DNA from: Candidatus Hodarchaeota archaeon
Lineage (GTDB): Archaea; Asgardarchaeota; Heimdallarchaeia; Hodarchaeales; Hodarchaeaceae
Direction of reading: 5' to 3'
Length of the DNA stretch: 26,964 nt
NCBI GenBank assembly: GCA_016839785.1
Contig: JAEOTQ010000040.1
Location: 1-26,964, forward strand
Below are positions 2,524 through 26,830 of the stretch, in pieces. The notes below the pieces were generated by a model. That model made no database searches, had not been told where the DNA came from, and was given only the letters and a program-made list of their open reading frames with translations. The first letter of the stretch is position 1. Each line of letters starts with the position of its first letter. Both the position numbers and the translations under genes were made by a program.

Positions 2524-3798
2524 CTAGGAAACACGCCTTCCTCTCTCTACAACTAGTTTCCCCTTTTTGAAGACCATCTCAACTAGATTAATACCATAGT
2601 TGTAAGCAAAAAAACGATGGTTCGGAGCATTAAAAATAACAATATCTGCCTTTTTTCCTACCTCTAGTGAACCAATTTCATGAGCACGGTCAATTGAATG
2701 GGCTGCATTTATCGTAGAAGCAGTTAGAGCCTCTGCAGCAGTCATCTTCATACGAAGTACAGCTAGGGTCATCATCATTTGCATAGACTCACACATGTTA
2801 GCAGCACTCACGTCAGTTGCTAAAGCGACAGGCATACCTCGATCAATTATTTCACGTGCAGGAGCATATTTATTAACATAACAAAAGGGAGAAGTCGGTA
2901 AAAAGACGATTATCGTTTTTTGCCCTTGAAGAGCATCGACTTCTTCTAGAGGGGTCCAAATTAAATGGTCTACAGAAACAATATCCCCAATTTCAGCAGA
3001 TAGCCGAGTACCACCACTGTGCGATAACCAGTCACAATGATTACGTAACTTCAAACCGTGTTTTCGAGCAGAGAGGAGAATTTTACGCGTTTGGTCAAGG
3101 CTGTAATATCCTTTTTCACAAAAAACGTCAGCGAACTCTGCTAGTTTCCTTTTTGCGATCTCAGGAATCCATTTCTCGGTAATTTCGTCCACAAGATCGT
3201 CAACATTATCTTCATGATCTGGAGGGATACCTTGAGTAAGAAAAGTTGGAATTAAATCTAAAGGATGGGATTTATTGAGAGATTTAATAATTTCTAGTTG
3301 TTTGATCTCTCCATTGAAGGTCATTTCGTAACCACTTTTAGCTTCAATAGTCGTTGTCCCATAGATGAGCATTTTATCTAAGATTTTAGATGTAATTTCA
3401 ATCTGGTCCTCAAAACTGGTTTCTGATGTCAATTTGAGAGATTTATTCATTCCCCCTCCTTGTTCTTTTAATTCTAAGTATGTAACTCCTAATACAGCCA
3501 TTTTTTCTAATTCGTCTTCTCTTGTTCCTGAAAATACTAAATGAACATGAGGATCAATTAATCCTGGTGTTACCAGTTTATCTGTGGCATCAATTACTTC
3601 ATATCCTTCAGCAAGCTGCTTTAGTACATCATCTGTGCTTCCTACAGCTACAATTTTACCATTTTTTACTGCTACGGCTCCATTCTTCACAATACTCAAA
3701 TCTTTCATTCTTTCTTTGATACGAGGGTTTTCACTTGAACCTGCTAATGTCACTAATTCATTCGCATTAATTATAACAAAATCTGTTTGTATAGACAT
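2524..3798 (-). CDS. hutI: Imidazolonepropionase-family amidohydrolase, active-site divergent
   Basis: PGLIDPHVHLVFSGTRE (HxH), GTTTIEAKSGY, DVFCEKG, SVDH, ALATD, GSLEVGKKAD, YNYGIN. Clustered with hutH/hutU. SD-like AGGTGG before the ATG. Several HutI substrate residues are replaced (see findings). Confidence 0.82.
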   Translation of the reverse strand: MSIQTDFVIINANELVTLAGSSENPRIKERMKDLSIVKNGAVAVKNGKIVAVGSTDDVLKQLAEGYEVIDATDKLVTPGLIDPHVHLVFSGTREDELEKMAVLGVTYLELKEQGGGMNKSLKLTSETSFEDQIEITSKILDKMLIYGTTTIEAKSGYEMTFNGEIKQLEIIKSLNKSHPLDLIPTFLTQGIPPDHEDNVDDLVDEITEKWIPEIAKRKLAEFADVFCEKGYYSLDQTRKILLSARKHGLKLRNHCDWLSHSGGTRLSAEIGDIVSVDHLIWTPLEEVDALQGQKTIIVFLPTSPFCYVNKYAPAREIIDRGMPVALATDVSAANMCESMQMMMTLAVLRMKMTAAEALTASTINAAHSIDRAHEIGSLEVGKKADIVIFNAPNHRFFAYNYGINLVEMVFKKGKLVVERGRRVS

Positions 3799-3819
3799 TA
3801 TATTCCACCTATTAGCATC

Positions 3820-5163
3820 TTAAACATCGATGTATCTGTCTCTTTCCCATTTATGAACATAAACACTGAATTCCTTCCATTCTTCTGCTTTTAATGAGAT
3901 GTACTTCCGAAAAAAATCTGATCCAAGAGCTTCCTGAAAATAAGTGTCTTTTGAAAATTCAAGTACTGCTTCTCCTAAGTTACCTGGGAGCATCTTAATT
4001 CCTTTGTTTCTACGCTCACTTGCAGACATGTCATATATGTTCTCTTCGACAGGAGTAGATGGATCTAATTTTTGTTTAACTCCATCTAAACCAGATGAGA
4101 ATAATCCTGCGTACGCAAGATAGAAATTGCAGGACCCATCAGTTGGTCGATATTCTAATCTAGCAGCTTTTTTACTTCCAGGAGGTATTCTGATTAGCGT
4201 TGAACGATTGTAGTTCGCCCAAGATATGTATACAGGGGCTTCCCAACCAGGTACAAGTCGTTTATATGAATTAACTGACGGATTCGTTAATAAAGCAAGG
4301 CCTTTTGCATGCTTTAATATACCTGCCAAAAAATTTTGGGCTAAGGAACTAAGTTTAAGGTTTTCACTTGAACTGGAAAATAAATTCGTATCTTTTTCTT
4401 GGTCTCGAAGATTTATATGAGTATGGAGCCCAGCACCGTATTCTCCGTGAAAGGGTTTTGGCATAAATGACGCAGTGAATCCATAATCATGAGCCATAAG
4501 CTTAGTAATGAACTTAATCAAATATATTGTATCTACCATTTGTAGTGCTTCGGAATAAGGAATATTGAATTCACTTTTTCCCGCTGGAACCTCATGATGA
4601 TGTTTTTCAATCATTATCCCAATATTCCTTAATGCTTCAGTTATTTTGAGGCGTAATCTTGTTCCTCGATCCTTGGGAGGTGAAGCTAGGTATCCAGCAT
4701 TATCAATAAGCTTAAATGGTTGGTCCTCCCCTTTTTCAAATAGAAAAAATTCTATTTCGCTAGAAGCAATTCCTATCACCGATGAACCTATTTGTTCTTG
4801 TATAGATGTAAGAACTTTTTTTAATATATATCTTGGATCTAAACCAAAGGGAATATCTGAATCTGGTTTAAAAATGTCACATACGACACGTGCGATTTTA
4901 TATTCAAATAATTGGGGAGGTAATATAGCAAAACTGTTCAAATCTGGAACCAATTTCACGTCACTCTTACTAACATCAACCATCTTACTTAGTGAAGAAC
5001 CATCAGTATGAATTCCATCTTTCATTATCTGAGATAGAGCTTGAGAGGGCACCCAGAGTGTGTGTAGTATTCCTGATAAATCTGTGAATTGTAAAGCTAG
5101 TTCTTTTACTTCTTTCTCATCAATTAGTTCAAGAGCTTTTGTTAAATCCAAACTTCTGTCCAC
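3820..5163 (-). CDS. glnA: Glutamine synthetase type I family protein
   Basis: LQFTDLSG, DGSS, EIEFFLF, HHEV...SE, FMPKP, GLHTH, NSYKRLVPGWEAP, NRS..IRIP, RLEYR. GTG start; 21 bp upstream of hutI, so probably co-transcribed. Confidence 0.85.
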   Translation of the reverse strand: MDRSLDLTKALELIDEKEVKELALQFTDLSGILHTLWVPSQALSQIMKDGIHTDGSSLSKMVDVSKSDVKLVPDLNSFAILPPQLFEYKIARVVCDIFKPDSDIPFGLDPRYILKKVLTSIQEQIGSSVIGIASSEIEFFLFEKGEDQPFKLIDNAGYLASPPKDRGTRLRLKITEALRNIGIMIEKHHHEVPAGKSEFNIPYSEALQMVDTIYLIKFITKLMAHDYGFTASFMPKPFHGEYGAGLHTHINLRDQEKDTNLFSSSSENLKLSSLAQNFLAGILKHAKGLALLTNPSVNSYKRLVPGWEAPVYISWANYNRSTLIRIPPGSKKAARLEYRPTDGSCNFYLAYAGLFSSGLDGVKQKLDPSTPVEENIYDMSASERRNKGIKMLPGNLGEAVLEFSKDTYFQEALGSDFFRKYISLKAEEWKEFSVYVHKWERDRYIDV

Positions 5164-5392
5164 TCGCTTTTTTTCTTATTAGATAGTGGTTTTTTTTGAA
5201 TTGTTTAAATTTTGTGACATCTAAATCACTTAGACAAAATGTCTTGAGAAGGGGGATTTTCTGATTGTGGCCAATCCAAGTTTCAAAAACGCAATTACAG
5301 GAATTTTTAAAGAGAAAGCATCATTAAGATGTTAATTTCTTCTTTAAATGATAAGATAAGGCGTTACTGTAGAATCAGGATGAGTATGAAAT

Positions 5393-6574
5393 ATGGACAA
5401 GGAAGAATTAAAGAAAAAAATCATCATTATGGCAAAGGAGCTTGAATCATATATTATTAAAACTCGCCGACATATCCATATGTATCCAGAAACTTTGTAT
5501 GAAGAAGAAGAAACCGCAAAATTTATTGAAAACGAATTAAGAAAGATTGGATTACAACCAAGACGGATAATTGGAACAGGAGTTCTTGTTGTTATTGAAG
5601 GGGTGTCTAAAGGAAGTAATATTGCATTACGTGCTGATATTGATGCTCTGAATGTTATCGAAGACAATAATTTCGATTACAAAAGTCAAATCATAGGAAA
5701 AATGCACGCGTGTGGACATGATGCACATACCGCGATGTTGCTAGGGGCCGCTAAACTGATAAATAAATATCGTGAGCATCTCTCTGGAACTGTTACACTC
5801 ATATTTCAACCTGCAGAGGAAGGAGGAGGAGGAGCAAAGAAAATTGTTGAGGAAAACCACCTACAAGATATTGATACGATTTTTGGAATACATGTATGGA
5901 GTCCCTTACCATCAGGTTACATTGGAATCCGCAAAGGAGCGATCTTTGCCTCTTCCGATCGATTCACGATCAAAATAACTGGAAAGGGTGGACATGCTGC
6001 AGCCCCTCACCAGACGATTGACCCTACAAGTGTTCTAGTAGATATCTACAATGCATTACAAAAACTCATTCCCAGAGAGGTTAATCCTTTTGAACATACG
6101 GTGTTATCTCTTCCAGTCCTAGAAGCTAGTGATGCTCACAACATAATCCCCAATAAGGCTAATATTCGTGGAACTCTTAGAACAATGAATCCTGAAGTAA
6201 GGAAATTTTTAATAGAAAGAATAAAACAGGTTGTGTATGGTTATTGCAATGCATGGAGGTGTAACGGTTTAGTAGAGTTCGATCCCATGGCTTATCCTGG
6301 AGTAGTAAATGATGATGGAATAGTTGATAATATTAGATCCATTCTTGGTGATGTTAGCCAAATCGTTAATATGGATCAGACAATGGTAGGAGAAGATTTT
6401 TCGTTTTATCTTCAAAAAGTTAAGGGTGCTTTTATCACATTAGGCATCCAGAATAAGCAGGAAGGAGTGATTTATCCACACCATCATCCAAAATTCGATG
6501 TAGATGAATCGGTTCTTTGGAAAGGAACGGCGATTTATGCCATTCTGGGTTTTTATCAATTATTTATTTCTTAA
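5393..6574 (+). CDS. M20D family metallo-amidohydrolase (N-acyl-amino acid amidohydrolase/carboxypeptidase type)
   Basis: HMYPE...EEEET, ALRADIDAL, MHACGHDAH, FQPAEEG, GKGGHAA, GEDFSF, HHHPKFDVDE. Confidence 0.92.
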   Translation: MDKEELKKKIIIMAKELESYIIKTRRHIHMYPETLYEEEETAKFIENELRKIGLQPRRIIGTGVLVVIEGVSKGSNIALRADIDALNVIEDNNFDYKSQIIGKMHACGHDAHTAMLLGAAKLINKYREHLSGTVTLIFQPAEEGGGGAKKIVEENHLQDIDTIFGIHVWSPLPSGYIGIRKGAIFASSDRFTIKITGKGGHAAAPHQTIDPTSVLVDIYNALQKLIPREVNPFEHTVLSLPVLEASDAHNIIPNKANIRGTLRTMNPEVRKFLIERIKQVVYGYCNAWRCNGLVEFDPMAYPGVVNDDGIVDNIRSILGDVSQIVNMDQTMVGEDFSFYLQKVKGAFITLGIQNKQEGVIYPHHHPKFDVDESVLWKGTAIYAILGFYQLFIS

Positions 6575-6575
6575 A

Positions 6576-8066
6576 CTATAGCATGAATTTTCTTACTAAA
6601 GAGGTACACTTCTCAATATCGGGAGTAAGTTCACGATCTTGATCCATCATAGAAACTTGGGACCTGACAGTTTTGTAAACATCCTTACATTGACGTGAGA
6701 GTTTATCTTCAATCTCAGCGATATCTATTGCCTGACTTGCGCATAATAATTCGATAGCTAAAATATATTGTAGATTATTTATTACTTTAAGGATCTTATT
6801 TGCAGCGTTCATACCCATGCTAACATGATCTTCTTGATCTGCTGATACTGGTATAGTATCAATAGAAGCTGGTGTAGATAATTGTCTATTCTCAGAGGTT
6901 AATGCAGCAGCAGTATATTGTGCAATCATAAGTCCAGAATTAAGCCCAGTATTGGGGGTTAAAAAAGCAGGAAGATTGCTAAGCATCGGATTTAACATCC
7001 TCTCGATTCTTCTTTCAGAAATATTTCCTAATTCAGTCAACGCAATAGCTAGGAAATCTAAAATAAAAGCTATTGGTTCTCCATGGAAATTTCCGCCACT
7101 ATAAACTTGATCGACTGAGAAAAGTAAAGGATTGTCAGTAGAAGCATTCATTTCAACTTCAGTTACTTTCTTCGCATGATCAATGGTATCATATACTGCT
7201 CCATGGACCGCTGGAGCGCAACGAAGTGAATAGGCGTCTTGTCTGCCGATTAACCGCTGTGTACGTTGGCTACCCTCTAAAAAATCTAAAATCATTTTTG
7301 CAGCCTTCTTTTGGCCACAATGCGGTCGAGCTTCATGAATTAAAGGATGTAAACTATCTAGATTACCCTCATGTATCTCCATACTCAGTGCTGTAGCAAT
7401 ATTTGCTACTTTAACTAAATAAAAAGCATTTTTTATTGCCAAAGCAGCAATTGAAGTCATTGCTTGAGTTCCATTTAATAGGGCCAATCCCTCTTTAGCA
7501 ATGAGTTTAAGAGGCTTCAAATTAACACTTTTTAATGCATTTATACCAGTCATCCTTTGTCCATTAAAATAAGCGTAACCCTTTCCTAATAAAACCAATG
7601 ATAGGTGAGCTAAAGGCGCCAAATCACCACTTGCGCCCAAGCTACCTTTGGAAGGGATTGAGGGAACAATATTCATATTTAAAAATTTTATTAGATAATT
7701 CACTACTTCTAAACGTATTCCTGAATGTCCTCGGGCAAATTTATTAATTTTTAGTGCTATCATTCCTCTAACTATATCGTGAGAAAGTTCAGGTCCGACT
7801 CCCGCTGAATGACTTATTATTAAATTTTCCTGTAATCTTTGTGTGTCATTTAAGGAAATATTGACCTTCTGAAGATAGCCAAATCCAGTTGTAATTCCGT
7901 ATATCCTCTTATCATCATCCAAAATAGATTGAACAATTTGAGCAGATCGATTAATTCTGTTTTGAGCACTTTCTGATAATTTAACATCATTTTCTAGGTT
8001 TATTATTTTATATAAGTCATCAATCGAAAGATTTTCACCCACTAACTCAATACTCTCTTTATTCAT
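6576..8066 (-). CDS. hutH: Histidine ammonia-lyase
   Basis: YGITTGFG, HAL-type specificity pair SH in LIISHSAGVG, MIO-forming GASGDLAPL, KEGLALLNGTQ, QDAYSLRC, GGNFHG, QEDHVSMG. Confidence 0.95.
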   Translation of the reverse strand: MNKESIELVGENLSIDDLYKIINLENDVKLSESAQNRINRSAQIVQSILDDDKRIYGITTGFGYLQKVNISLNDTQRLQENLIISHSAGVGPELSHDIVRGMIALKINKFARGHSGIRLEVVNYLIKFLNMNIVPSIPSKGSLGASGDLAPLAHLSLVLLGKGYAYFNGQRMTGINALKSVNLKPLKLIAKEGLALLNGTQAMTSIAALAIKNAFYLVKVANIATALSMEIHEGNLDSLHPLIHEARPHCGQKKAAKMILDFLEGSQRTQRLIGRQDAYSLRCAPAVHGAVYDTIDHAKKVTEVEMNASTDNPLLFSVDQVYSGGNFHGEPIAFILDFLAIALTELGNISERRIERMLNPMLSNLPAFLTPNTGLNSGLMIAQYTAAALTSENRQLSTPASIDTIPVSADQEDHVSMGMNAANKILKVINNLQYILAIELLCASQAIDIAEIEDKLSRQCKDVYKTVRSQVSMMDQDRELTPDIEKCTSLVRKFML

Positions 8067-8186
8067 TCTCGATCACTAATAAGATTCTTTTGTTTTGTAT
8101 ATAGCAATTGAATTTCTCTTACTTACAGAATGGATTAGTATTCTGATCCCATCTATATGGCAATGTTCTGAAATATAATTCACTTT

Positions 8187-8405
8187 TCAATGTATCTCTG
8201 GAGAGTAAAATCCAATTTTTGGAACACAGATTAAGTTATAATCATTAATATTAGCATCTATCAGAAGTTTTTTTATACAGTGCCGATTTTCTTGAGAGTG
8301 ACATTCGATGAATAATACAGATAAGTTTATTCTTCCCTTTTCAGCACTAATCGGTTTATCCGATTCTAAATTAGCATTAATTCTCACAATTCGATAGGTA
8401 ACCAT
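8187..8405 (-). CDS. Possible small hypothetical protein (72 aa) between hutU and hutH
   Basis: ATG-started ORF on the same strand as hutU/hutH, 27 bp after the hutU stop, filling most of a 366-bp gap. No recognisable motif. Confidence 0.25.
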   Translation of the reverse strand: MVTYRIVRINANLESDKPISAEKGRINLSVLFIECHSQENRHCIKKLLIDANINDYNLICVPKIGFYSPEIH

Positions 8406-8432
8406 TAATTAATTATTTGCTTTAATGTAAAC

Positions 8433-10319
8433 TTAGAGAAGTCTAATATTTTCACTACTAGAGGGAGAAAATAAGTTTATTCCAGTCCGTTCTTTAACTA
8501 GTGAACACAATTCCTCGTATAGATCAAGGTAGTTCACTTTTTTATCTTCTGTTATTCCAGGTACAAAAATTTTGTTCTTTACTGCGAATTTTACTGATTT
8601 TTCGTATCCCGCTGCAGCGTGTCGTAAGACTGCTGACATCGGATCCCAAGTTAATACCCTAAACAGGCGTTCTTGAGTAAGAGGTGTTCCATCAGCAACG
8701 CACACTTGTCCAGCATGAAGAGAATATCCAACTCCCACACCTCCACCTCCGTGATAGCTAACCCACGTTGCTCCAGAAAGCGAATTTCCTAAAAGATTTA
8801 GAACGGGGTAATCTCCGATTGCATCGGATCCATCTCTCATCCCTTCAGTTTCACGATATGGACTAGCAACTGATCCGCCATCTAAATGATCTCGACCAAT
8901 GATAACTGGTGCATCTAGCAATCCATCGGCATATAACTTGTTTAATAACATTCCAAATGCTGCCCTTCCTTTATATCCCGCCCAAAACACTCTAGCAGGA
9001 AGTCCTTTCTCAAAAGGTATGTACCTTGAGGCTAATTCTACCCAATTGATTAGCATTGGATCGTCATGAAACAATTTTTTGGCATACTCATCGGTAGTTA
9101 AGATATCTTTTGGGTTATTAGATAAAGCTGCCCATCTGAATGGTCCTTTTCCTTCGCAAAACAATGGTCTGACATAATTAGGAACAAATCCAGAGAAATT
9201 ATAAGCATCTTCACAGCCCTCTTTAAATGCTTGGGTACGAATGTTGTTCCCATAATCAAAGGTTTCAGCACCTTTCTTCTGTAATTCCACCATTAGTTCA
9301 ATATGATTTTTTACTGTTTTAAAGGCGAGATCTTTATATTTTTTTGGATTAGACGTTCTTAATTCTATTGCCTCATCATAAGTCATTTTATCAGGAATAT
9401 ATCCATTCAACATGTCATGTGCTGAAGTCTGATCTGTAAGAACATGAGGAGTTATCTTATTTCTTATTAAATATTCAAGCAAATTAACCGCATTACATAA
9501 AACTCCAATAGACGTGGGTTGATTTTTTAGTGCATATTCACGTGCAAGTTTTACTCCTTCTCCAATAGAATCGACCTGTATATCTAAATAGGGAGTACCT
9601 GTATCTCGCCCCTCATTATACATACGATCAAGATTATTTGGATCAATTTCGGCTATAAGGGCAATTTTTCCCGCCATTTTTATAGCGAGAGCTTGAGCCC
9701 CACCCATCAATCCAAGACCTGCCGTAACAATTAGATTTTGTTCAAAAGAATTAAGTTTATTGTAGTTAGGAGAATTTTCGGCAGATTTTATGGCTGCGAT
9801 CATTGTTTCGTAAGTACCTTGGATTATCCCCTGTAACCCTATAAAAATCCAGCTTCCTGCGGTCATTTGGCCATACACAGTCAATCCTGCATCAACCATT
9901 TCCTGAAAAGACTGTGTCCAATTAGGAACAATTACTGAATTCGTCACAACACACCGAGGTGCTAACTGATGAGTTATGGTTTTTCCATAGGGGACTCCTG
10001 ATTGCATGAAAAGTGTTTCATTTGGCTCTAAAGATTGTAACATATCTATGGTTTCATAATACGCCTCCCAATTCCGCATCGCTTTTCCACTACCCCCATA
10101 AATAAAGAATTTTTCCCAGTTTTTCCCATTATGGAGGTTTGAGATAATAGCTCGAATGATTCCTTCGGTTTGCCAGCCAGCTTTTGTAGTGGGAGATAAG
10201 GCTGCCTCTCCTTTCGGTAAAGGGGGAATTCTAGTTGGCTTAAGATCATACCTCAATCTCTTTTCTTCTTCAACTTTATGATGACCCTCAACAATTTCTT
10301 GCAGCTTAGTTTTTTTCAT
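8433..10319 (-). CDS. hutU: Urocanate hydratase
   Basis: YGGSGKAMRNW, YGQMTAGSW, QGTYET, TAGLGLMGGAQ (NAD binding), TDQTSAHD, FDYGNNIR, GPFRW, GRDHLD, SPYRETE, GGGVG. SD GAGGA. Confidence 0.93.
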   Translation of the reverse strand: MKKTKLQEIVEGHHKVEEEKRLRYDLKPTRIPPLPKGEAALSPTTKAGWQTEGIIRAIISNLHNGKNWEKFFIYGGSGKAMRNWEAYYETIDMLQSLEPNETLFMQSGVPYGKTITHQLAPRCVVTNSVIVPNWTQSFQEMVDAGLTVYGQMTAGSWIFIGLQGIIQGTYETMIAAIKSAENSPNYNKLNSFEQNLIVTAGLGLMGGAQALAIKMAGKIALIAEIDPNNLDRMYNEGRDTGTPYLDIQVDSIGEGVKLAREYALKNQPTSIGVLCNAVNLLEYLIRNKITPHVLTDQTSAHDMLNGYIPDKMTYDEAIELRTSNPKKYKDLAFKTVKNHIELMVELQKKGAETFDYGNNIRTQAFKEGCEDAYNFSGFVPNYVRPLFCEGKGPFRWAALSNNPKDILTTDEYAKKLFHDDPMLINWVELASRYIPFEKGLPARVFWAGYKGRAAFGMLLNKLYADGLLDAPVIIGRDHLDGGSVASPYRETEGMRDGSDAIGDYPVLNLLGNSLSGATWVSYHGGGGVGVGYSLHAGQVCVADGTPLTQERLFRVLTWDPMSAVLRHAAAGYEKSVKFAVKNKIFVPGITEDKKVNYLDLYEELCSLVKERTGINLFSPSSSENIRLL

Positions 10320-10516: not shown

Positions 10517-11221
10517 TTAACGTTTTTGGAGTTCTGAAATTAAAATATCCCGAATGACCATTTGAATCGGTTGAATTATTCTTTGAACTGCTTGAGGGCG
10601 CTGTTTTGGATTCCATTCTCCTTTGCTCCATGCCTCACGCAGTGCACTCAATGCATCAAGGCAACTAACCTCAAAAGTGCTTGCAAAAGTATCTCGTAAC
10701 TTATCAGAGACACCAGCCTCAATCATCAATCTCCCAACATCGGCAGCGCTAATACGGGATTCTACAGGTAAATCCATTTTATTAAGCATGATGGCGATTT
10801 TGATGTCTCCCGTATATATTTTATCTCCAGAGACCTCAAAGAGTTCTTTCAGGCTATCCTTATTTTCTTCCCAACGAGCTTTTTCAGAATCAATTACAAC
10901 TATCAGGCCATGAAGTCCGTTAATAACAATTTTTCTCATGGATTTGAATCTATCTTGCCCAGGGGTTGTAAAAAGATGGTATTTAAAGCCCTTCCCTGGA
11001 CCTCCTCCCAAACCAAAGGTGGCTTGATCAAAACCAATAGTTCTCTCCGTAGCTTTATCTTCGAGTTTTAAAAAGTTATAAACACTCTCAGGATCTTCTT
11101 TTTTCTTTATTGCATGGAATAAACTTAAAGCTGTTGTTTTTCCTGCTAATGTTGGTCCCCAGATAACAATTTTTATCCCTTGTTGCGACTCTTCAAACAC
11201 CAGCTCTTCTTCTTGACTCAA
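10517..11221 (-). CDS. MglA-like small Ras-superfamily GTPase
   Basis: G1 GPTLAGKTT, G2 ERTIGFD (MglA RTLFFD-like, with intrinsic Arg), G3 TTPGQ lacking the DxxG Asp as in MglA, G4 NKMD. TTG start at 11221 preferred (GAGGA 7 nt upstream) over the track's GTG at 11269. Confidence 0.85.
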   Translation of the reverse strand: MSQEEELVFEESQQGIKIVIWGPTLAGKTTALSLFHAIKKKEDPESVYNFLKLEDKATERTIGFDQATFGLGGGPGKGFKYHLFTTPGQDRFKSMRKIVINGLHGLIVVIDSEKARWEENKDSLKELFEVSGDKIYTGDIKIAIMLNKMDLPVESRISAADVGRLMIEAGVSDKLRDTFASTFEVSCLDALSALREAWSKGEWNPKQRPQAVQRIIQPIQMVIRDILISELQKR

Positions 11222-11611
11222 TGAATGTTCCTCGAAAAGTTTTACTTTGAAATAAAGCCTAAGAATCACTTAGAACGATAAATTGTAAGGAAAGGTACCA
11301 AATTCCTAACACTTATCTCACTTGTCAGTCTATTTCCTTATTATTCTTCTACTTAAAAAGGAATGCTAAATTCCAGAGGGATTTAATCCTTCTATATATT
11401 ATCAGATTCAGATTTCATTTTAACCTATGGTATTTGCTATCAATTTATGTGCTAATACAATAAGTGTTGTAGGTTAGCTTTTTGCTTTGCTCTATTAACT
11501 AATAATAAGTAAATTTGAAGAATCTATATAATTCTTAAATTGATAGATAGTTTAAAATTGGTAAAAAAGCATATTCGCCATCTTATTGTCTTTTAAGGAT
11601 AGAATGGTCCT

Positions 11612-17307: not shown

Positions 17308-20300
17308 CTAACCACACTTAGAATAACCACAGACCCTACAGAGAATGCAACCTTCACTATGTTCTACAATATTCCCACATTCTGGACATTCTGGCCGTAA
17401 TCCTGAAGTGGTGTGACTTAAATATAACGTTTCTGACTCGTAATGTTCCTCATTACTGGGTATTTCATTTGAGGGAGCATTTTTTCCGTTTCCGTTCTGA
17501 CTATACCGTTCAATAAATCGTTCGACTGATTTTGCAACTGCATCTGCACAGGAGAGTACTGGACCATCTGGACCGAAGGTTGGAGAGGGGCATCTAATTG
17601 CCTTTAATTGCAAAATAATTTCTTCAGGTTCGATCCTGCTTCTTAGAGTGAGGGAGATAAGTCTTCCCATGGCTTCAATATGAGAAGCTACACAACCTCC
17701 AGATTTTCCTAAAGATAGAAAAAGTTCTGTTAGACCCTCTTCATCCTCATTGATAGTAATAAATAAATTTGTTCCACATCCGACTCGAACACGCTCGGTA
17801 ATTCCTTGAGTAACACTAGGTCTATGACGTGGTTTTTTAGTCTCAAACTGTTCAACGACAGTGTCCGATGTTTCACTAGTTCCTTTTTTTGATAAAACGT
17901 CATAAGTGCGTGATCCAGAGCGATATACAGTAATTCCTTTACATCCCAATTCATAGGCGAGTAAATAAGCTTTCTCTATATCTTCTAAAGAGGCGGTATT
18001 TGGAAAATTTATCGTTTTCGAGACTGCATTATCAACGCCGGCACCTTGAAAGGCTGCCTGCATCCGAACATGCGCATCTGGTGAGATATCATGGGCGGTA
18101 ACAAAAATCTTCCGGATTTCATCTGGAATCCCTTCGATGTCTGTTATAGCGCCTGTTTTAGCAACCTGTTCCATCAGCGAGGGAGAATAAAAGTCTAGTT
18201 GCTTTGCAGTTTCCACAAAGAACGGATATCCTTCTACAAGAATATCATCATCAAGAACTCGTCTTTCATATGTTAACATAAATAACGGTTCAATTCCACT
18301 AGAGCACCCAGCAATAATTGAAATTGTCCCTGTGGGAGCTAAGGTAGTTAAAGTAGCATTTCTCATCATAGAATAATTTTGTGCTAAAGTACTTCCTGGA
18401 AAATTTGGGAAGGAACCTCGCTCTTGAGCTAAATCCTGAGAGGTTTGAAGAGCTTTATCATAAATAAAATTCATCACTTCTTTCGCAAGATTGATACCCT
18501 CGATTGAATCATAAGGAATTCCCAATTTTATCAAGAGGTCAGCAAATCCCATGACTCCAAGGCCAATTTTCCGATTCGCTTTTGTCATTTGTTCAATTTC
18601 AGGTAAAGGAAACGTAGATAGATCAATTACGTTATCTAAAAATCTTACGGATAACCTAGTAATACTTTCCAACTTTTCGAAATCAAGTTTATAGCCAAAT
18701 TTTTCACTAGAATCGATTTTAACCATTTTTCCAAGGTTAATTGAGCCTAAATTGCACGATTCATAGGGTAATAAGGGTTGTTCTCCACAATTATGGACTA
18801 TAATCCCATTTGCAATAAATCCTCCCAGAGGAGTTCCCACGATGTCATATACGTCATCTTCTTTAATGTAGGTTAATTTCTTGATACGTGCAGTAAATTT
18901 TTCTTTATAAGGGCCTCTAGAAGTCAACGTTTTTAGGGAATTAATCATCTTTGTTTGTTTATTGATGAGAATAAACCCAATTTCGTCCTTATAACGTAAA
19001 AGATTAGCTTTTGAGATTATTAGTACATGCTGAGCTTTGATGGGGAAGTACTTTTTTTGACCTTTACCATCAGGTAAAAGTGATCTACCCTTAGGTCTTC
19101 GGTTTTGATATAGTTTCGAAGCGATTCCAAAATTAAGGAGCATTACCTGTACTTTTTGGAGTAAACTAAGATTACTTTGAGCTAATCGAACACTAAAACC
19201 TTTTTCCAGAGAGCCTTGAAAGGATCCATCAGCAGAAAAAATGGCCTGTAAAAATCCTCTTTGACAACTCTCCGATGATTCAAGGAGCTTCCCAGAAATC
19301 TTCTTTTTCTCAACTTCCCACTGTTCGAGTAGTGAAAGTATCTTACTTGATTTTACTTCTTCTCTTTGAGGAATTTTAATTACAGATACATGAGCATTTA
19401 GCTGCTCGTTAACAATATTCGCAAAGTACTCAGAGAGTTCTCCTTTATCTTTATCATAGAATGCTAGAACCGCTCTACCATCATTTCCAGTCGTCCAGCC
19501 ATCTCCTACGAACCACCCTAATATGTGCCCTATCTTCTGGTTGCCTTCTGATCCAAAACCTCCTTTACTTCGTTGGAGGCAAATTTCTTCATTAAACTGT
19601 AATTTCTTTGCTTCTTTCCATCCACTTGGGGTTAAAACTCTATGATCAGAAGTGAGCTTAATGGAAAATCCTTCTTTAGTCTCTAAATAGTATATCTCTT
19701 TTCTAGCAGTCTTAATAACATTAGGGACATCTAAGATATTTAATAAACCTTTTTCTGTTGAAATTAATGAATCTTCAGCCACACAAGGATTAGTTGCTTC
19801 AATGTTCCCTATATGTGGGGTAGGATTGGTTGAATTTATGCGATCTAAGAAGAGTATTCCTGGTTCTCCCGTGTTATGCGCCATTTTAACAATTTTCTCA
19901 AAGACAGTCCGTGCATTTAGTTTTTCGACCGTTTCACGATTTCTGGGGTTAATTAAAGGATAATCGGTATCCGAAAGAACTGCTTGCATAAATGATTCAG
20001 TCAGACCTACAGAAATATTAAAATTATTTAACGTTTGAAGATCTTGTTTGCATTCAATAAATTCTAGTATATCAGGATGATCTACACGCAATACTCCCAT
20101 GTTTGCTCCGCGTCTACGTCCCCCTTGTTTTATTATTTCAGTAGCAGAGTTAAAAACGGTCATAAAAGAGATTGGCCCTGAAGCTACTCCACCAGTCGTT
20201 TGTACCTTATCATTTGTGGGTCTAAGACGTGAAAAAGCAAATCCTGTCCCTCCTCCTGATTTATGAATAACTGCAGCATTTTTTATGGCTTGAAAAATTG

Positions 20301-20637
20301 ATGTCATATCATCTTCTACAGGTAATACAAAGCAGGCGGACAACTGGTTTATTTTTGTTCCTGCGTTCATTAAGGTAGGACTATTAGGTAGGAATTCGAA
20401 GTTCACCATCATATCATAGAATTTCTTTTCCATTACAGCAGGATCAAGACCATACCGTGACTCATTGGCCGCAATTGCTTTTACCACTCGTGAAAAGAGT
20501 TGAGCTGGAGTTTCTATTATCTCCCCTCTATCATTCTGTAATAAATACCTCTTCTCGAGTACAGTCATTGCATTTGGGGTAAGTACAGGTTGTTTTCGAT
20601 CCATCTCATCTTTATGAACGTTAGAAACTAATGTCAT
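17308..20637 (-). CDS. nrdJ: Class II (adenosylcobalamin-dependent) ribonucleotide reductase, intein-containing, with C-terminal TSCPD-type domain and Zn ribbon
   Basis: PNSPTLMNAG, LSACFV, SGGGTG, GGRRRGANM, ATNP/CGEQPL split by an intein, ESCNLGSINL, RKIGLGVMG, APTGTIS, AVSKTIN, CKGITVYR, LSCADA, CPECG...EGCILCRVCGYSKC. No N-terminal ATP-cone. Confidence 0.95.
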   Translation of the reverse strand: MTLVSNVHKDEMDRKQPVLTPNAMTVLEKRYLLQNDRGEIIETPAQLFSRVVKAIAANESRYGLDPAVMEKKFYDMMVNFEFLPNSPTLMNAGTKINQLSACFVLPVEDDMTSIFQAIKNAAVIHKSGGGTGFAFSRLRPTNDKVQTTGGVASGPISFMTVFNSATEIIKQGGRRRGANMGVLRVDHPDILEFIECKQDLQTLNNFNISVGLTESFMQAVLSDTDYPLINPRNRETVEKLNARTVFEKIVKMAHNTGEPGILFLDRINSTNPTPHIGNIEATNPCVAEDSLISTEKGLLNILDVPNVIKTARKEIYYLETKEGFSIKLTSDHRVLTPSGWKEAKKLQFNEEICLQRSKGGFGSEGNQKIGHILGWFVGDGWTTGNDGRAVLAFYDKDKGELSEYFANIVNEQLNAHVSVIKIPQREEVKSSKILSLLEQWEVEKKKISGKLLESSESCQRGFLQAIFSADGSFQGSLEKGFSVRLAQSNLSLLQKVQVMLLNFGIASKLYQNRRPKGRSLLPDGKGQKKYFPIKAQHVLIISKANLLRYKDEIGFILINKQTKMINSLKTLTSRGPYKEKFTARIKKLTYIKEDDVYDIVGTPLGGFIANGIIVHNCGEQPLLPYESCNLGSINLGKMVKIDSSEKFGYKLDFEKLESITRLSVRFLDNVIDLSTFPLPEIEQMTKANRKIGLGVMGFADLLIKLGIPYDSIEGINLAKEVMNFIYDKALQTSQDLAQERGSFPNFPGSTLAQNYSMMRNATLTTLAPTGTISIIAGCSSGIEPLFMLTYERRVLDDDILVEGYPFFVETAKQLDFYSPSLMEQVAKTGAITDIEGIPDEIRKIFVTAHDISPDAHVRMQAAFQGAGVDNAVSKTINFPNTASLEDIEKAYLLAYELGCKGITVYRSGSRTYDVLSKKGTSETSDTVVEQFETKKPRHRPSVTQGITERVRVGCGTNLFITINEDEEGLTELFLSLGKSGGCVASHIEAMGRLISLTLRSRIEPEEIILQLKAIRCPSPTFGPDGPVLSCADAVAKSVERFIERYSQNGNGKNAPSNEIPSNEEHYESETLYLSHTTSGLRPECPECGNIVEHSEGCILCRVCGYSKCG
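18790..19785 (-). mobile_element. Intein with LAGLIDADG homing endonuclease (332 aa, residues 285-616 of NrdJ)
   Basis: Starts CVAEDSLI after ATNP; block B LTSDHRV; LAGLIDADG motifs LGWFVGDG and LQAIFSADG; ends VYDI...FIANGIIVHN, followed by the extein Cys of CGEQ. Confidence 0.95.
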
Positions 20638-25558: not shown

Positions 25559-26830
25559 TTCGCATGAAGTCATCAACTAGCTCGTTACCAATGCTAGTTT
25601 CCATCGTGTCGGATGTAACCCTACATCCTCTATCCTGTCAGCTGCAAAAGCGTTCAGGAATGCTTTTTTAAGGATATTATAACCACCATTAACATCAGCA
25701 TTAATAATAATGCCTTTTTTAGATTTAAATAGTCCTCTATTTATCCTTTTTCCTTGGTATTTATCATGGTGTCTTACAGGTTCATTATCCAAGAAAGAGC
25801 ACTTACTAGAATGACTTTCTTCTTGTTTAATGATTAATATTCCATTTTCTTCAGCTTTGTATTCCAATTGTTTAATCAGTTTATGGTAGGGAATGGTGAC
25901 AAAATTCTGGTTATTTCTTTTGCCAAGGTGACAGCTTTGTTTCCAGTTAGGATTGTACCCGATTATAATTGTACCAATGTCATTAAAGACACAGTAGCCA
26001 ATAATATTTCTACTAGTCTTATGGAAATAGTCATGGATTTTTTGATTACGCTTATGAATCAATTGCTGCATTTTTTTACCTGTTTTTATTCCCTGATGGT
26101 CATAAACAGATTGAACTCTAGCTCTTTCTTTATTGTAATATTGATTAATGGCTTTAACAACCCCACCTTTAATAACAAACGGTATTAAACCATTATTATT
26201 AACAGTAGTTATGAGATTGCGTACCCCAAAATCAATAGCAATGAGATTGTCTTTGTTCAAAAGTTTAGGACTAATAGTTTTCTGGTAGACGATTTCTACC
26301 ACATAACCTACCCCTTTCGGAATAATTCGCGCTTCTCTGATGTCTGTTATGTCCGGTAGTCTTGTTTTTAGTTTCAAACCTACTTTTTTGGGAAAGGACA
26401 AGAAACAATCTATTATTTTCACCTGCTGGTTGGTAAAAACCAGTAAGGACTCTCCATTCTTTGGCTTGTATTTAGGTATTCTTGGCTCAGCCTTGAATTT
26501 TGATTTATCCCTTTTCCACTCTTTGATAGCATTAAAATAACTTTTCCAATTTCTATCAAGGATTTTCAATACCTGTTGGGCAGTCTGGGCGGGAAGTTGT
26601 TGATAATTGTTGGAGGTTTTCATTTCGTGGTACAGGGAATTATATTGAATCCATTTATTGGTGTTAAAGAACTCCTGACGAATTTGATAATTGCTTTCAT
26701 TGTAAAGGTTTTTTGATAGATGACACAACCGTGAAAGGGTTCTATTTGGTTTGATCCAGATTTGTTCAGTACGAGTAATTATCATAAATTAAACTTCATC
26801 TCGCACAAGCTTTATTGGAGGATTTTGGTT
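25520..26830 (-). mobile_element. Non-autonomous IS200/IS605-family element carrying only tnpB (ends approximate)
   Basis: tnpB with no recognisable tnpA in the 179 bp visible upstream. Hairpin 19 nt after the tnpB stop (candidate right end); GGATTTT/AAAATCC hairpin at 26820-26848. Boundaries are inferred. Confidence 0.55.
25577..26785 (-). CDS. tnpB: RNA-guided endonuclease TnpB (IS200/IS605 superfamily, IS1341-like)
   Basis: SKNLYN, LPAQTAQQVLK, PRIPKYK, RuvC-I AIDFG, DYFHKTSR, IGYN..WKQ, QLEYKAE..GI, EESHSSKCS, RuvC-III INADVNGGYNI. Confidence 0.95.
   Translation of the reverse strand: MIITRTEQIWIKPNRTLSRLCHLSKNLYNESNYQIRQEFFNTNKWIQYNSLYHEMKTSNNYQQLPAQTAQQVLKILDRNWKSYFNAIKEWKRDKSKFKAEPRIPKYKPKNGESLLVFTNQQVKIIDCFLSFPKKVGLKLKTRLPDITDIREARIIPKGVGYVVEIVYQKTISPKLLNKDNLIAIDFGVRNLITTVNNNGLIPFVIKGGVVKAINQYYNKERARVQSVYDHQGIKTGKKMQQLIHKRNQKIHDYFHKTSRNIIGYCVFNDIGTIIIGYNPNWKQSCHLGKRNNQNFVTIPYHKLIKQLEYKAEENGILIIKQEESHSSKCSFLDNEPVRHHDKYQGKRINRGLFKSKKGIIINADVNGGYNILKKAFLNAFAADRIEDVGLHPTRWKLALVTS

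What the first reader, a model, noticed from the sequence alone, without database searches (positions are those of the whole stretch)
2524..10319. Remodelled hut cluster: no HutG/HutF, but a GS-family ligase and an M20D hydrolase embedded between hutH and hutI
Seen: hutU(-), hutH(-), M20D(+), glnA-like(-), hutI-like(-) are contiguous, with no formiminoglutamase, formiminoglutamate deiminase or formiminotransferase in the window. Known: canonical Hut pathways need one of those after HutI, and variant imidazole catabolic routes (ergothioneine, N-methylhistidine) reuse HutH/U/I paralogues. Inference: an undescribed lower pathway in which the divergent HutI yields an N-acyl glutamate (formyl, formimino or carbamoyl). 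The M20D enzyme would remove the acyl group and the GS-like enzyme would recapture the released ammonia/amine, making the cluster nitrogen-conserving.
Basis: partly seen in the sequence, partly recalled or inferred. Interest (0 to 1): 0.7.

Follow-up and report, generated by a model that had tools for sequence, protein, structure and literature searches.

The report
Alternative histidine-breakdown branch in Asgard archaea
This Asgard archaeon keeps the first two histidine-degrading enzymes but has swapped the usual later steps for a travelling gene pair, an unusual glutamine-synthetase relative plus an unusual ring-opening enzyme, helped here by a deacylase, which points to an undescribed way of finishing histidine breakdown.

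Summary
The five genes are real and lie at the stated coordinates: hutU, hutH, an M20D amidohydrolase, a GS-family ligase (GS*) and a HutI homologue (HutI*). FtcD, HutG, HutF and FGase are missing from this genome and from the 11 other same-genus genomes that carry GS*. The 10 same-genus genomes without GS* all have FtcD, with a canonical hutI at the same syntenic spot. Across 400 Asgard genomes, 0 of 23 GS* carriers have FtcD, against 238 of the other 377.

The invariant core is GS*-HutI*, adjacent in 21 of 21 evaluable genome loci and 23 of 23 evaluable metagenome loci. It never occurs beside canonical hutI-only loci (0 of 53). The third gene is exchangeable: an Ftr paralogue (11 of 11 loci outside this genus), M20D (recruited twice independently), an M20 plus HDAC-like pair, or a HutG-like gene.

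Both core proteins keep their catalytic residues but carry clade-fixed active-site changes. GS* has Lys where 107 of 107 other GS have Gln. HutI* has Gln and Trp at two positions that I recall as substrate-analogue contacts.

Best reading: an undescribed FtcD-independent lower Hut branch ending in glutamine, with M20D removing the C1 group. The exact GS* substrate is unresolved. I found no published description.

The parts
8433..10319 (-). hutU, urocanate hydratase (628 aa)
   Evidence: TIGR01228 640.2 bits (cut-off 375) and three Urocanase Pfam domains. It is 74-77% identical to, and syntenic with, hutU of sister genomes that use canonical hutI plus FtcD.
6576..8066 (-). hutH, histidine ammonia-lyase (496 aa)
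   Evidence: TIGR01225 649.8 bits (cut-off 539). ASGDL MIO motif at residue 145. It is 59-61% identical to and syntenic with sister-genome hutH.
5393..6574 (+). M20D (CpsA/ILR1/YxeP-type) N-acyl-amino-acid amidohydrolase. A hut-linked paralogue and the proposed remover of the N-linked C1 group.
   Evidence: TIGR01891 353 bits; CpsA model 459 bits, below 500. PDB 1xmb 278 bits with the HACGHD and QPAEEG metal motifs aligned. Adjacent to GS* in 11 of 12 same-genus GS* genomes. The 11 hut-linked copies form one clade (99/97 support) inside the class-wide M20D orthogroup; a second copy lies at G000:C199.
5164..5392 (.). 229-bp AT-rich divergent intergenic region between GS* and M20D. Presumed promoters for GS*-hutI* and for M20D.
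   Evidence: Gene geometry. GC is 0.30 and no motif is convincingly shared with the hutU or hutH upstream regions. The promoter function is inferred.
3820..5163 (-). GS*: hut-linked glutamine-synthetase-family ATP-dependent carboxylate-amine ligase (447 aa, GTG start)
   Evidence: Gln-synt_C 356.7 bits and Gln-synt_N 62.8 bits; TIGR00653 433.8 against 429.15. About 349 bits to GS I-alpha structures. It is only 40% identical to the genome's other GS. Signature H52, K196, W307 and Y318 is present in 39 of 39 hut-linked GS and in 0 of 107 others, while all catalytic residues are kept.
2524..3798 (-). HutI*: divergent imidazolonepropionase-family amidohydrolase (424 aa), starting 21 bp after the GS* stop
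   Evidence: TIGR01224 369.5 bits. PDB 2bb0 (B. subtilis HutI) 314.7 bits. It is the only HutI homologue in its genome. The signature Q189, W257 and S331-A332-A333 is present in 48 of 48 HutI* sequences. Among 74 canonical sequences these positions hold H (73 of 74), E or Q, and x-P-x.

Best explanation
The window encodes an FtcD-independent variant of histidine utilisation. Canonical HutH and HutU convert histidine to urocanate and then to 4-imidazolone-5-propionate (family assignment shown; chemistry inferred from the families). The canonical hutI and the distal ftcD of sister genomes have been replaced, at the same chromosomal spot, by a laterally shared two-gene module plus one exchangeable C1-removing enzyme. 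The module is GS* (an ATP-dependent glutamine-synthetase-family ligase) followed by HutI* (a HutI-subfamily metallo-amidohydrolase). In this genome the exchangeable enzyme is a duplicated M20D aminoacylase. Proposed flow (inferred): HutI* opens the imidazolone ring to an N-formimino- or N-formyl-glutamate-type product. M20D hydrolyses the N-linked one-carbon group. In other Asgard lineages an Ftr paralogue would instead pass that group to tetrahydromethanopterin. GS* spends ATP to put pathway-derived ammonia on the gamma-carboxyl, so the end product is glutamine rather than glutamate. The order of the GS* and M20D steps is not settled, that is, whether GS* acts on free glutamate or on the N-substituted intermediate.
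For: (1) The known lower-pathway enzymes are absent. In the own genome: FtcD, FGase, HutF and HutG. In the genus (22 genomes): FGase 0 of 22 and HutF 0 of 22, and HutG above cut-off 0 of 22.
(2) Complementarity. In the genus, the 12 GS* genomes have FtcD in 0 of 12 and the other 10 have it in 10 of 10. In the phylum sample, 0 of 23 GS* genomes have FtcD against 238 of 377 others. A second within-family contrast exists: g25 has GS* in 4 of 4 and FtcD in 0 of 4, while g24 has FtcD in 15 of 15.
(3) Module swap. Sister genomes share the flank o314-PIG-L-GTPase-hutU-hutH but then carry a convergent canonical hutI, only 40-43% identical, with no GS or M20D (7 of 7 loci).
(4) GS*-HutI* adjacency holds in 12 of 12 same-genus loci, 9 of 9 evaluable loci in other families, locus L018 and 23 of 23 evaluable metagenome loci. 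It holds in 0 of 53 canonical-HutI metagenome loci.
(5) HutI* is the only HutI homologue in the 12 same-genus GS* genomes and in 5 of 5 others tested, two of them single-contig genomes.
(6) The slot beside the pair holds C1- or acyl-removing enzymes. These are an Ftr paralogue in 11 of 11 non-genus genome loci and 7 metagenome loci; a CpsA-type M20D in 9 metagenome loci; an M20 plus HDAC-like pair (L175); and a HutG-like gene (L018). The Ftr copy is a divergent paralogue, not the genome's main Ftr.
(7) The M20D tree shows one hut-linked clade in this genus and a separate hut-linked metagenome clade, meaning two recruitments.
(8) GS* keeps the D50', S53', Y179 and E327 equivalents. PMC8998196 (passages read) lists these as ammonium-site or active-site residues that are substituted in amine-specific GS-like enzymes.
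Against: There is no biochemical or genetic evidence, and every chemical step after HutU is inferred.
A plain ammonia-trapping GS does not explain the clade-invariant changes K196 (Gln in 107 of 107 others), H52, W307 and Y318.
It also does not explain why HutI* needs Q189 and W257.
The hut-linked M20D differs from its paralogues at only two fixed, conservative positions.
M20D is not adjacent in 1 of 12 genomes (G063).
One metagenome locus (L171) carries a canonical hutI (461 bits) beside Ftr-GS*-HutI*, so HutI* may not simply duplicate the HutI reaction.
Arginase-fold (amidine) and M20/Ftr/HDAC (amide) partners imply different leaving groups.
Genomes are MAGs (this one 84.5% complete) and relatives are not independent samples.
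Contigs from the RNA library matched only hutH and hutU.
Confidence: 0.55

Rival explanations
1. GS* is neofunctionalised and acts on a pathway intermediate rather than on free glutamate. One option is that it amidates N-formimino- or N-formyl-glutamate to the corresponding N-substituted glutamine. Another is that it uses the amidine nitrogen of formiminoglutamate as the nitrogen donor, yielding glutamine plus N-formylglutamate. The third enzyme (M20D, Ftr paralogue, M20/HDAC-like) then removes a formyl group.
For: The invariant GS* signature lies within two residues of catalytic residues. K196 sits between the two metal ligands E191 and E198, W307 is next to the flap Glu308, H52 is two residues before Asp54, Y318 is two before Arg320, and Y/F242 and A/C244 flank Gly243. 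These are found in 39 of 39 GS* and K196, W307, H52 and Y318 in 0 of 107 other GS. GS* and HutI* are co-inherited as a pair. Most partner enzymes are formyl- or acyl-specific (Ftr, M20D, M20, HDAC-like) although no deiminase is present. An N-alpha-acyl-glutamine aminoacylase (6slf) is among the PDB relatives of M20D.
Against: The ammonium-site residues (D54, S56, Y158, E308) and the alpha-carboxylate Arg302 are fully kept, as expected for glutamate plus NH4+. The spatial role of K196 could not be checked because no coordinates were available. Position 242 varies among ordinary GS as well. L018 pairs the module with a HutG-like amidinohydrolase. No such reaction is known; searches for formylglutamine and formiminoglutamine found nothing relevant.
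Confidence: 0.27
2. This is an ordinary Hut cluster with two bystanders. GS is a co-regulated nitrogen-assimilation paralogue, M20D is a general carboxypeptidase/aminoacylase, and formiminoglutamate is handled by an unrecognised or unassembled enzyme elsewhere.
For: GS* passes the GlnA equivalog cut-off. M20D has a near-identical-function paralogue elsewhere and only two fixed differences from it. The genome is 84.5% complete. Agmatinase-like arginase-fold genes exist.
Against: The pair is adjacent in every evaluable locus and never sits beside canonical hutI-only loci. FtcD is absent in 23 of 23 carriers, including two single-contig genomes at 96-97% completeness. The same arginase-fold paralogues occur in FtcD-bearing sisters. 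Both proteins have fixed active-site signatures. M20D-family genes were recruited independently twice.
Confidence: 0.1
3. The cluster degrades a histidine derivative (ergothioneine, N-methylhistidine, or hydantoin-propionate via an N-carbamoyl intermediate) rather than histidine.
For: From recalled literature, variant imidazole pathways reuse HutH/U/I paralogues and end with M20-type carbamoylases. HutI* has an altered pocket.
Against: hutU scores 640 bits on the hutU model against 484-499 bits on the thiourocanate models, which are far below their own cut-offs of 880-930. hutH and hutU are the syntenic orthologues of those serving the canonical hutI/FtcD pathway in sister genomes. M20D matches the aminoacylase subfamily, and a carbamoylase model appears only faintly, in a relative (hydantase 29.6 bits).
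Confidence: 0.04

Closest known systems
Hut pathway with glutamate formimidoyltransferase (HutH-HutU-HutI-FtcD), as in sister Asgard genomes and the control genomes Bacteroides thetaiotaomicron and Thermotoga maritima
   Same: The first two enzymes are the same, a HutI-family enzyme does the ring opening, and the chromosomal context matches the sister genomes. FtcD was found in those two control genomes.
   Different: No FtcD (0 of 23 carriers). HutI is replaced by a distinct subfamily with Q189 and W257. An ATP-dependent GS-family ligase is obligatorily linked. C1 removal is by M20D or an Ftr paralogue.
Hydrolytic Hut routes: HutG formimidoylglutamase (arginase fold), or HutF deiminase plus N-formylglutamate amidohydrolase (FGase)
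   Same: The net logic is hydrolytic removal of the C1 unit from an N-substituted glutamate. One related locus (L018) does carry a HutG-like gene (199.8 bits, below the 229 cut-off).
   Different: HutG, HutF and FGase are absent here and in the genus. The hydrolase is of the M20D family. A GS-family ligase is part of the unit.
GS-like gamma-glutamyl ligases of amine catabolism (PuuA; Streptomyces GlnA2/GlnA3; glutamate-methylamine ligase 9qur)
   Same: A GS-fold paralogue is embedded in a catabolic cluster beside a housekeeping GS. The GGputSyn model scores 277 bits and 9qur scores 241 bits.
   Different: Those enzymes have lost ammonium-site residues (S53, Y179, N264 or E327; PMC8998196 passages). 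GS* keeps D50', S53', Y179 and E327 and instead has its own K196, H52, W307 and Y318 signature. GS* scores best as GlnA.
Formylmethanofuran:tetrahydromethanopterin formyltransferase (Ftr/FhcD)
   Same: The partner gene in 11 of 11 non-genus loci has both FTR lobes, scores 235.8 bits against M. kandleri Ftr (1ftr; about 45% identity is my estimate from the printed alignment), and scores 282-294 bits against a cut-off of 297.
   Different: It is a divergent extra paralogue (127-130 bits against 183-196 for the main copy) placed in a hut cluster. It is absent from this window's genome, where M20D takes its place. A role as formyl or formimino acceptor system is inferred.
CpsA / ILR1 / YxeP M20D aminoacylases, including N-alpha-acyl-glutamine aminoacylase (6slf)
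   Same: Same subfamily (TIGR01891), with metal motifs aligned to 1xmb.
   Different: It is below the CpsA equivalog cut-off. It is a hut-linked duplicate clade. The substrate is unknown.

Membership tests
Type I glutamine synthetase (GlnA, TIGR00653) | Score at or above the curated equivalog cut-off | tested here: met
   433.8 bits against 429.15, a bare pass.
Type I glutamine synthetase (GlnA, TIGR00653) | Metal ligands, flap Glu, Glu- and ATP-binding Arg residues, and the ammonium-site Asp, Ser and Tyr | tested here: met
   D54, S56, E136, E138, Y158, E191, E198, H247, R302, E308, R320, R325, E337 and R339 are invariant in 39 of 39 GS*. The mapping to S. typhimurium numbering is partly recalled and partly from PMC8998196.
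Type I glutamine synthetase (GlnA, TIGR00653) | Gln between the two n1 metal-ligand Glu residues (E-x4-Q-x-E), invariant in the comparators | tested here: not met
   Lys196 in 39 of 39 GS*; Gln in 107 of 107 other GS.
Type I glutamine synthetase (GlnA, TIGR00653) | Glutamate plus NH4+ plus ATP giving glutamine (activity) | not testable with these tools
   Needs an enzyme assay.
Imidazolonepropionase HutI (TIGR01224) | Score at or above the equivalog cut-off, and the metal-binding His/His/His/Asp plus the fourth His | tested here: met
   369.5 bits against 298.15. H84, H86, H254, H278 and D329 are invariant.
Imidazolonepropionase HutI (TIGR01224) | Substrate-analogue contact residues of B. subtilis HutI (R89, Y102, Y152, H185, E252; the list is recalled from Yu et al. 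2006, which I did not see) | tested here: not met
   The R, Y and Y positions are kept. H185 is Q in 48 of 48 HutI* and E252 is W in 48 of 48. Canonical sequences have H in 73 of 74 and E or Q in 74 of 74.
M20D amidohydrolase subfamily (TIGR01891) / CpsA equivalog (NF040868) | Subfamily cut-off, and equivalog cut-off | tested here: inconclusive
   TIGR01891 is met (353.4 bits against 153.75). CpsA is not met (459 bits against 500).
Canonical lower Hut pathway (FtcD, HutG, or HutF+FGase) | Presence of at least one of these enzymes in the genome | tested here: not met
   Own genome: none. The 12 same-genus GS* genomes: FtcD 0 of 12, HutG above cut-off 0 of 12, HutF 0 of 12, FGase 0 of 12. HutG, HutF and FGase were not tested in the 11 GS* genomes of other families.
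Histidine ammonia-lyase / urocanase (upper Hut pathway) | Equivalog scores; MIO-forming Ala-Ser-Gly in HutH | tested here: met
   hutH 649.8 bits against 539.15; hutU 640.2 bits against 375. ASGDL at residue 145.

The most novel reading that the evidence does not exclude
GS* is not a glutamine synthetase in the ordinary sense. It would be a new ligase specificity within the GS fold that processes the formimino- or formyl-glutamate made by its obligate partner HutI*. It either amidates that intermediate, or harvests its amidine nitrogen directly into glutamine and leaves N-formylglutamate. The formyl group is then handed to tetrahydromethanopterin by a dedicated Ftr paralogue, or hydrolysed by M20D as in this genome. 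That would be a cofactor-switched, nitrogen-conserving replacement for FtcD that has spread laterally among Asgard and other uncultured archaea.
Probability: 0.3. Interest if true: 0.85.

Novelty: new variant of a known kind. Interest (0 to 1): 0.68.

Why it matters
Histidine degradation is treated as a settled textbook pathway with three known endings (FtcD, HutG, HutF+FGase). It is also used as a marker of amino-acid fermentation in metabolic reconstructions of Asgard archaea, the closest prokaryotic relatives of eukaryotes. Here a fourth ending is defined by a sharply delimited GS subfamily and HutI subfamily that current models name as ordinary 'glutamine synthetase' and 'imidazolonepropionase'. 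Automated annotation therefore hides it, and genomes carrying it look as if they have an incomplete Hut pathway.

If confirmed, the finding would:
- add a new reaction, or at least a new dedicated role, to the GS fold;
- give a function to an orphan Ftr paralogue by linking histidine catabolism to methanopterin C1 metabolism;
- show modular replacement of a pathway segment by lateral transfer at a fixed chromosomal site.

All components are soluble enzymes that can be expressed and assayed directly.

Tried and rejected
Physical GS*-HutI* complex: one complex-prediction job with alignments A2 and A1 gave no verdict (score 0.00, mark 0.32). This is not evidence either way.

Shared regulatory motif: a k-mer comparison of the GS|M20D, hutU|hutH and hutU-upstream intergenic regions found only short AT-rich matches of 11 nt or less. 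I dropped this line.

Expression: one RNA-library run (X11) gave seven 151-nt contigs on hutH and hutU only, with 0-7 differences. Nothing was laid on GS*, hutI* or M20D. Contigs cannot show absence, and DNA carry-over is possible.

Arginase-fold genes as a hidden HutG: rejected. They are best matched by agmatinase models, and the same paralogues occur in FtcD-bearing sister genomes.

Ergothioneine or methyl-histidine reading: rejected on model scores and synteny.

M20D specialisation: I looked for fixed differences between hut-linked and other copies and found only A188S and F262L, so there is no clear signature.

GS tree: a FastTree run recovers the 39 GS* sequences as one clade on a long stem (0.81), but local support is only 0.68 and the sister is a single sequence. 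The origin of the clade is unresolved. The OTHER set was thinned to every third sequence for that tree.

Taxonomy of the GC 58-59% metagenome loci (L175, L180-L189) was not determined. An adjacent HMG-CoA reductase hints at archaea only.

Three-dimensional positions of the signature residues could not be checked, because the tools give no coordinates.

Literature: six searches found no description of a GS-linked hut cluster.
- For the Imachi et al. preprint (10.1101/726976) I saw one passage. Its Supplementary Figs S6/S7 on histidine genes could not be seen, since supplements are closed, and they may bear on Asgard hut genes.
- For the Methanoperedens ECE paper I saw two passages describing an ordinary four-gene hut operon.
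- For PMC8998196 I saw passages.
- For PMC13081902 I saw only reference-list and legend passages.
- Yu et al. 2006 and Tyagi et al. 2008 were not seen. The HutI contact-residue list and most S. typhimurium GS numbering are recalled.

Full report
THE OBSERVATION.
- HutI homologue, 2524-3798(-): TIGR01224 369.5 bits, cut-off 298.
- GS-family protein, 3820-5163(-): Gln-synt_N and Gln-synt_C domains; TIGR00653 433.8 bits against 429.15.
- M20D amidohydrolase, 5393-6574(+): TIGR01891 353 bits; CpsA model 459 bits, below 500.
- hutH, 6576-8066(-): TIGR01225 649.8 bits.
- hutU, 8433-10319(-): TIGR01228 640 bits, against 484-499 bits for the thiourocanate hydratase models.
HutH has the ASG MIO motif. 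The GS stop and the hutI start are 21 bp apart. GS and M20D diverge from a 229-bp AT-rich spacer, and M20D and hutH converge. The remaining ORFs of the window are unrelated: a subtilase, a small GTPase, a PIG-L deacetylase, an archaeosine TGT, an intein-bearing ribonucleotide reductase, endonuclease dU, sugar and isoprenoid enzymes, and a TnpB-like gene. Contigs of three public DNA runs bridge the hutI-GS-M20D junctions without differences, although these runs may include the sample of origin. The nearest named relatives are Heimdallarchaeota and Hodarchaeota MAGs.

IS A CANONICAL LOWER PATHWAY REALLY MISSING? In the own genome:
- FtcD (TIGR02024) and FGase (PF05013) give no match.
- HutF gives only weak amidohydrolase hits (83.7 bits or less against 413).
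- The two arginase-fold genes score best as agmatinase (194.8 and 163.7 bits, against 144.5 and 125.3 for HutG).
One incomplete MAG proves little, so I looked at relatives. In the class (83 genomes) a close homologue of the hut-linked GS (at least 64% identity) occurs only in the window's genus, in 12 of 22 genomes. Every other GS hit is 42% identical or less. FtcD is found in 0 of those 12 and in 10 of the other 10. HutG above cut-off is found in 0 of 22. The sub-threshold arginase paralogues are shared by both groups, so they are not a group-specific substitute. FGase is 0 of 22 and HutF is 0 of 22. In a 400-genome sample of the phylum, the GS clade occurs in 23 genomes of five families. None of the 23 has FtcD, against 238 of the other 377. 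A second within-family contrast exists: genus g25 has GS in 4 of 4 and FtcD in 0 of 4, while its sister genus g24 has FtcD in 15 of 15. Two carriers are single-contig genomes at 96-97% completeness. Kin are not independent, so this amounts to a handful of evolutionary contrasts, not 23. Even so, the pattern is clean.

A MODULE SWAP AT A FIXED SITE. Seven FtcD-bearing sister genomes share the flank o314 / PIG-L / small GTPase / hutU (74-77% identity) / hutH (59-61%). They then carry a convergent canonical hutI that is only 40-43% identical to the window's HutI, and they have no GS and no M20D. By contrast, the window's HutI is 61-77% identical to the GS-linked HutI of other Asgard families and of metagenome contigs. 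The hutH and hutU of those lineages are only 38-49% identical to the window's. I infer that GS plus HutI moved as a unit between lineages. No reconciliation analysis was done.

WHAT IS CONSERVED. The pair GS*-HutI* (GS upstream, same strand) is adjacent in:
- 12 of 12 same-genus genomes (coordinates);
- 9 of 9 evaluable loci of other families, with two more cut by contig ends;
- the extra locus L018;
- 23 of 23 metagenome loci that have enough upstream sequence, with four others too short to judge.
None of the 53 metagenome loci with a canonical HutI (49% identity or less) has a GS beside it. HutI* is the sole HutI homologue in the 12 same-genus carriers and in 5 of 5 other carriers tested.

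The third gene is not conserved, but its kind is.
- An Ftr homologue is divergently adjacent to GS* in 11 of 11 loci outside the genus and in 7 metagenome loci. It scores 235.8 bits against M. kandleri Ftr, and 282-294 bits against a cut-off of 297. About 45% identity is my own estimate from the printed alignment. It is an extra, more divergent paralogue next to a better-scoring Ftr in 5 of 5 genomes tested.
- The window's genome has no Ftr at all. It carries M20D in that slot, as do 11 of the 12 same-genus carriers.
- A different, CpsA-equivalog M20D (576.8 bits, above 500) sits convergently after hutI* in nine GC-rich metagenome loci.
- L175 has an ArgE/DapE-type M20 gene and an HDAC-family gene in the operon.
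- L018 has a HutG-like arginase-fold gene (199.8 bits, below 229).
In a maximum-likelihood tree, the 11 same-genus hut-linked M20Ds form one clade (99/97). It is nested in the class-wide M20D orthogroup (100/100), beside the copies found elsewhere in the same genomes. The metagenome hut-linked M20Ds form a distant clade (100/99). This gives one in-lineage duplication and one independent recruitment. The hut-linked copies differ from their paralogues at only two fixed positions.

THE TWO CORE PROTEINS ARE DISCRETE SUBFAMILIES. GS* has all residues I could map to catalysis: the Asp/Ser of the neighbouring-subunit loop, both E-x-E metal ligands, the Tyr179 equivalent, E191, E198, H247, R302, the flap E308, R320, R325, E337 and R339. 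These hold in 39 of 39 distinct sequences. PMC8998196 (passages) names D50, S53, Y179, N264 and E327 as active-site or ammonium-site residues. It shows that polyamine-specific GS-like enzymes have replaced several of them. GS* keeps all but the N264 position, which is variable among ordinary GS too. However, GS* has Lys196 where 107 of 107 other GS have Gln. Those comparators include the two other GS paralogues of the same genomes. Lys196 lies between the two metal-ligand glutamates. GS* also has Trp307 next to the flap Glu, His52 two residues before the loop Asp, and Tyr318 two before Arg320. Each is present in 39 of 39 GS* and 0 of 107 others. A FastTree places the 39 on one long stem.

HutI* keeps the metal ligands, the fourth His, and the R/Y/Y triad. 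It has Gln189 and Trp257 where canonical HutI has His (73 of 74) and Glu or Gln (74 of 74). It also has S-A-A instead of x-P-x after the metal Asp, in 48 of 48 sequences. By the alignment to B. subtilis HutI (2bb0), positions 189 and 257 correspond to H185 and E252. I recall these as two of the five contacts of the substrate analogue in Yu et al. 2006, but I did not see that paper.

HOW IT MOST LIKELY WORKS. Shown: the family assignments, the absence of the known endings, the complementarity with FtcD, the co-inheritance of GS* and HutI*, the interchangeable third enzyme, and the fixed signatures. Inferred: HutH and HutU deliver imidazolonepropionate, HutI* opens the ring, the third enzyme removes the N-linked one-carbon unit, and GS* uses ATP to amidate a gamma-carboxyl with pathway nitrogen. 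In this genome the third enzyme is M20D, acting by hydrolysis. In Ftr-bearing lineages the unit would be transferred to methanopterin. The route then ends in glutamine. Formate-tetrahydrofolate ligase is present in 4 of 10 FtcD-bearing and 0 of 12 GS*-bearing same-genus genomes. That fits a shift away from a folate-linked, ATP-yielding ending towards a nitrogen-salvaging one.

Several things remain open.
- Most partner enzymes (Ftr, M20D, M20, HDAC-like) act on formyl or acyl amides, yet no deiminase is present.
- One locus has an amidinohydrolase-type partner.
- One locus (L171) has a canonical hutI next to the full Ftr-GS*-HutI* module.
- A plain GS role does not predict the GS* signature.
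I therefore give 0.55 to the general scheme with GS* acting as an ammonia-dependent amidating enzyme of unspecified order. I give 0.27 to a neofunctionalised GS* that works on the N-substituted intermediate, or that uses its amidine nitrogen. I give 0.10 to a bystander reading and 0.04 to a histidine-derivative pathway.

COMPARISON WITH WHAT IS KNOWN. The upper pathway is canonical. The ending differs from all three textbook endings. GS* would be named 'type I glutamate--ammonia ligase' and HutI* 'imidazolonepropionase' by the curated models, so the variant is invisible to routine annotation. It resembles the GS-like gamma-glutamyl ligases in being a catabolic GS paralogue, but not in its residue pattern. 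Six full-text searches found no description of it. Subscription-journal papers and supplements were not searchable.

VERDICT. The assignment of M20D as the deacylase is plausible. The role given to GS is only one of two live options. The true conserved unit (GS*-HutI* plus an exchangeable C1 remover, usually an Ftr paralogue) is broader and more interesting than the five-gene set. I rate it a new variant of a known kind, with interest 0.68.

Noticed in passing
window 10517-11269 (-): A small Arf/Ras-like GTPase (Pfam Arf, Ras, Roc; 250 aa) sits immediately upstream of hutU. It is conserved at 84-87% identity in that position in sister genomes. It looks like an Asgard 'eukaryotic signature' GTPase, with no obvious link to hut.
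   Followed up: partly
window 17308-20637 (-): A ribonucleotide reductase large subunit (1109 aa) is interrupted by an intein with a LAGLIDADG homing-endonuclease domain (Intein_splicing, LAGLIDADG_3).
   Followed up: no
window 25577-26785 (-): A TnpB / Cas12f-like OrfB_IS605 protein (402 aa) lies at the window edge.
   Followed up: no
L171:5178-6542 (-) with L171:6589-10272: One metagenome contig carries a canonical hutI (TIGR01224 461 bits, but with Asn at the His185 position) directly beside Ftr-like, GS* and HutI*. Both HutI types therefore coexist in one locus.
   Followed up: partly
L175:6196-7443 (+) and L175:10411-11394 (+): In a GC-59% metagenome locus the GS*-HutI* pair is flanked in the same operon by an ArgE/DapE-type M20 hydrolase (NF010589, 490 bits) and an HDAC-family deacylase (PF00850, 268.7 bits), followed by hutH.
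   Followed up: partly
G050:C12:86414-87745 (-): The GS* gene of one same-genus genome contains one in-frame TAG. It may be a pseudogene, an assembly error or a read-through; I did not examine it.
   Followed up: no
L014:3192-6227 (+) and L016 equivalent: In two related genomes a roughly 1010-aa fusion protein (APH phosphotransferase + M23 peptidase + class-III aminotransferase) sits between hutU and hutH.
   Followed up: no
L014:12817-13536 (+): Downstream of hutI* in a related genome lies a 239-aa coiled-coil protein with weak, sub-threshold SNARE / V-SNARE_C Pfam hits (22 bits). It is a possible Asgard SNARE-like protein.
   Followed up: no
G058:C124:38055-40637 and equivalents (L145-L151): The two other GS paralogues of this genus are themselves adjacent and divergently or convergently arranged in several genomes. 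In the window's genome they lie on C140 and on C124, where the gene is cut by the contig end.
   Followed up: no
G057:C1:1779492-1783698: In FtcD-bearing sister genomes, ftcD lies within about 2 kb of formate-tetrahydrofolate ligase. Examples are G057 and G051:C75. This suggests an ATP-yielding folate ending there.
   Followed up: partly
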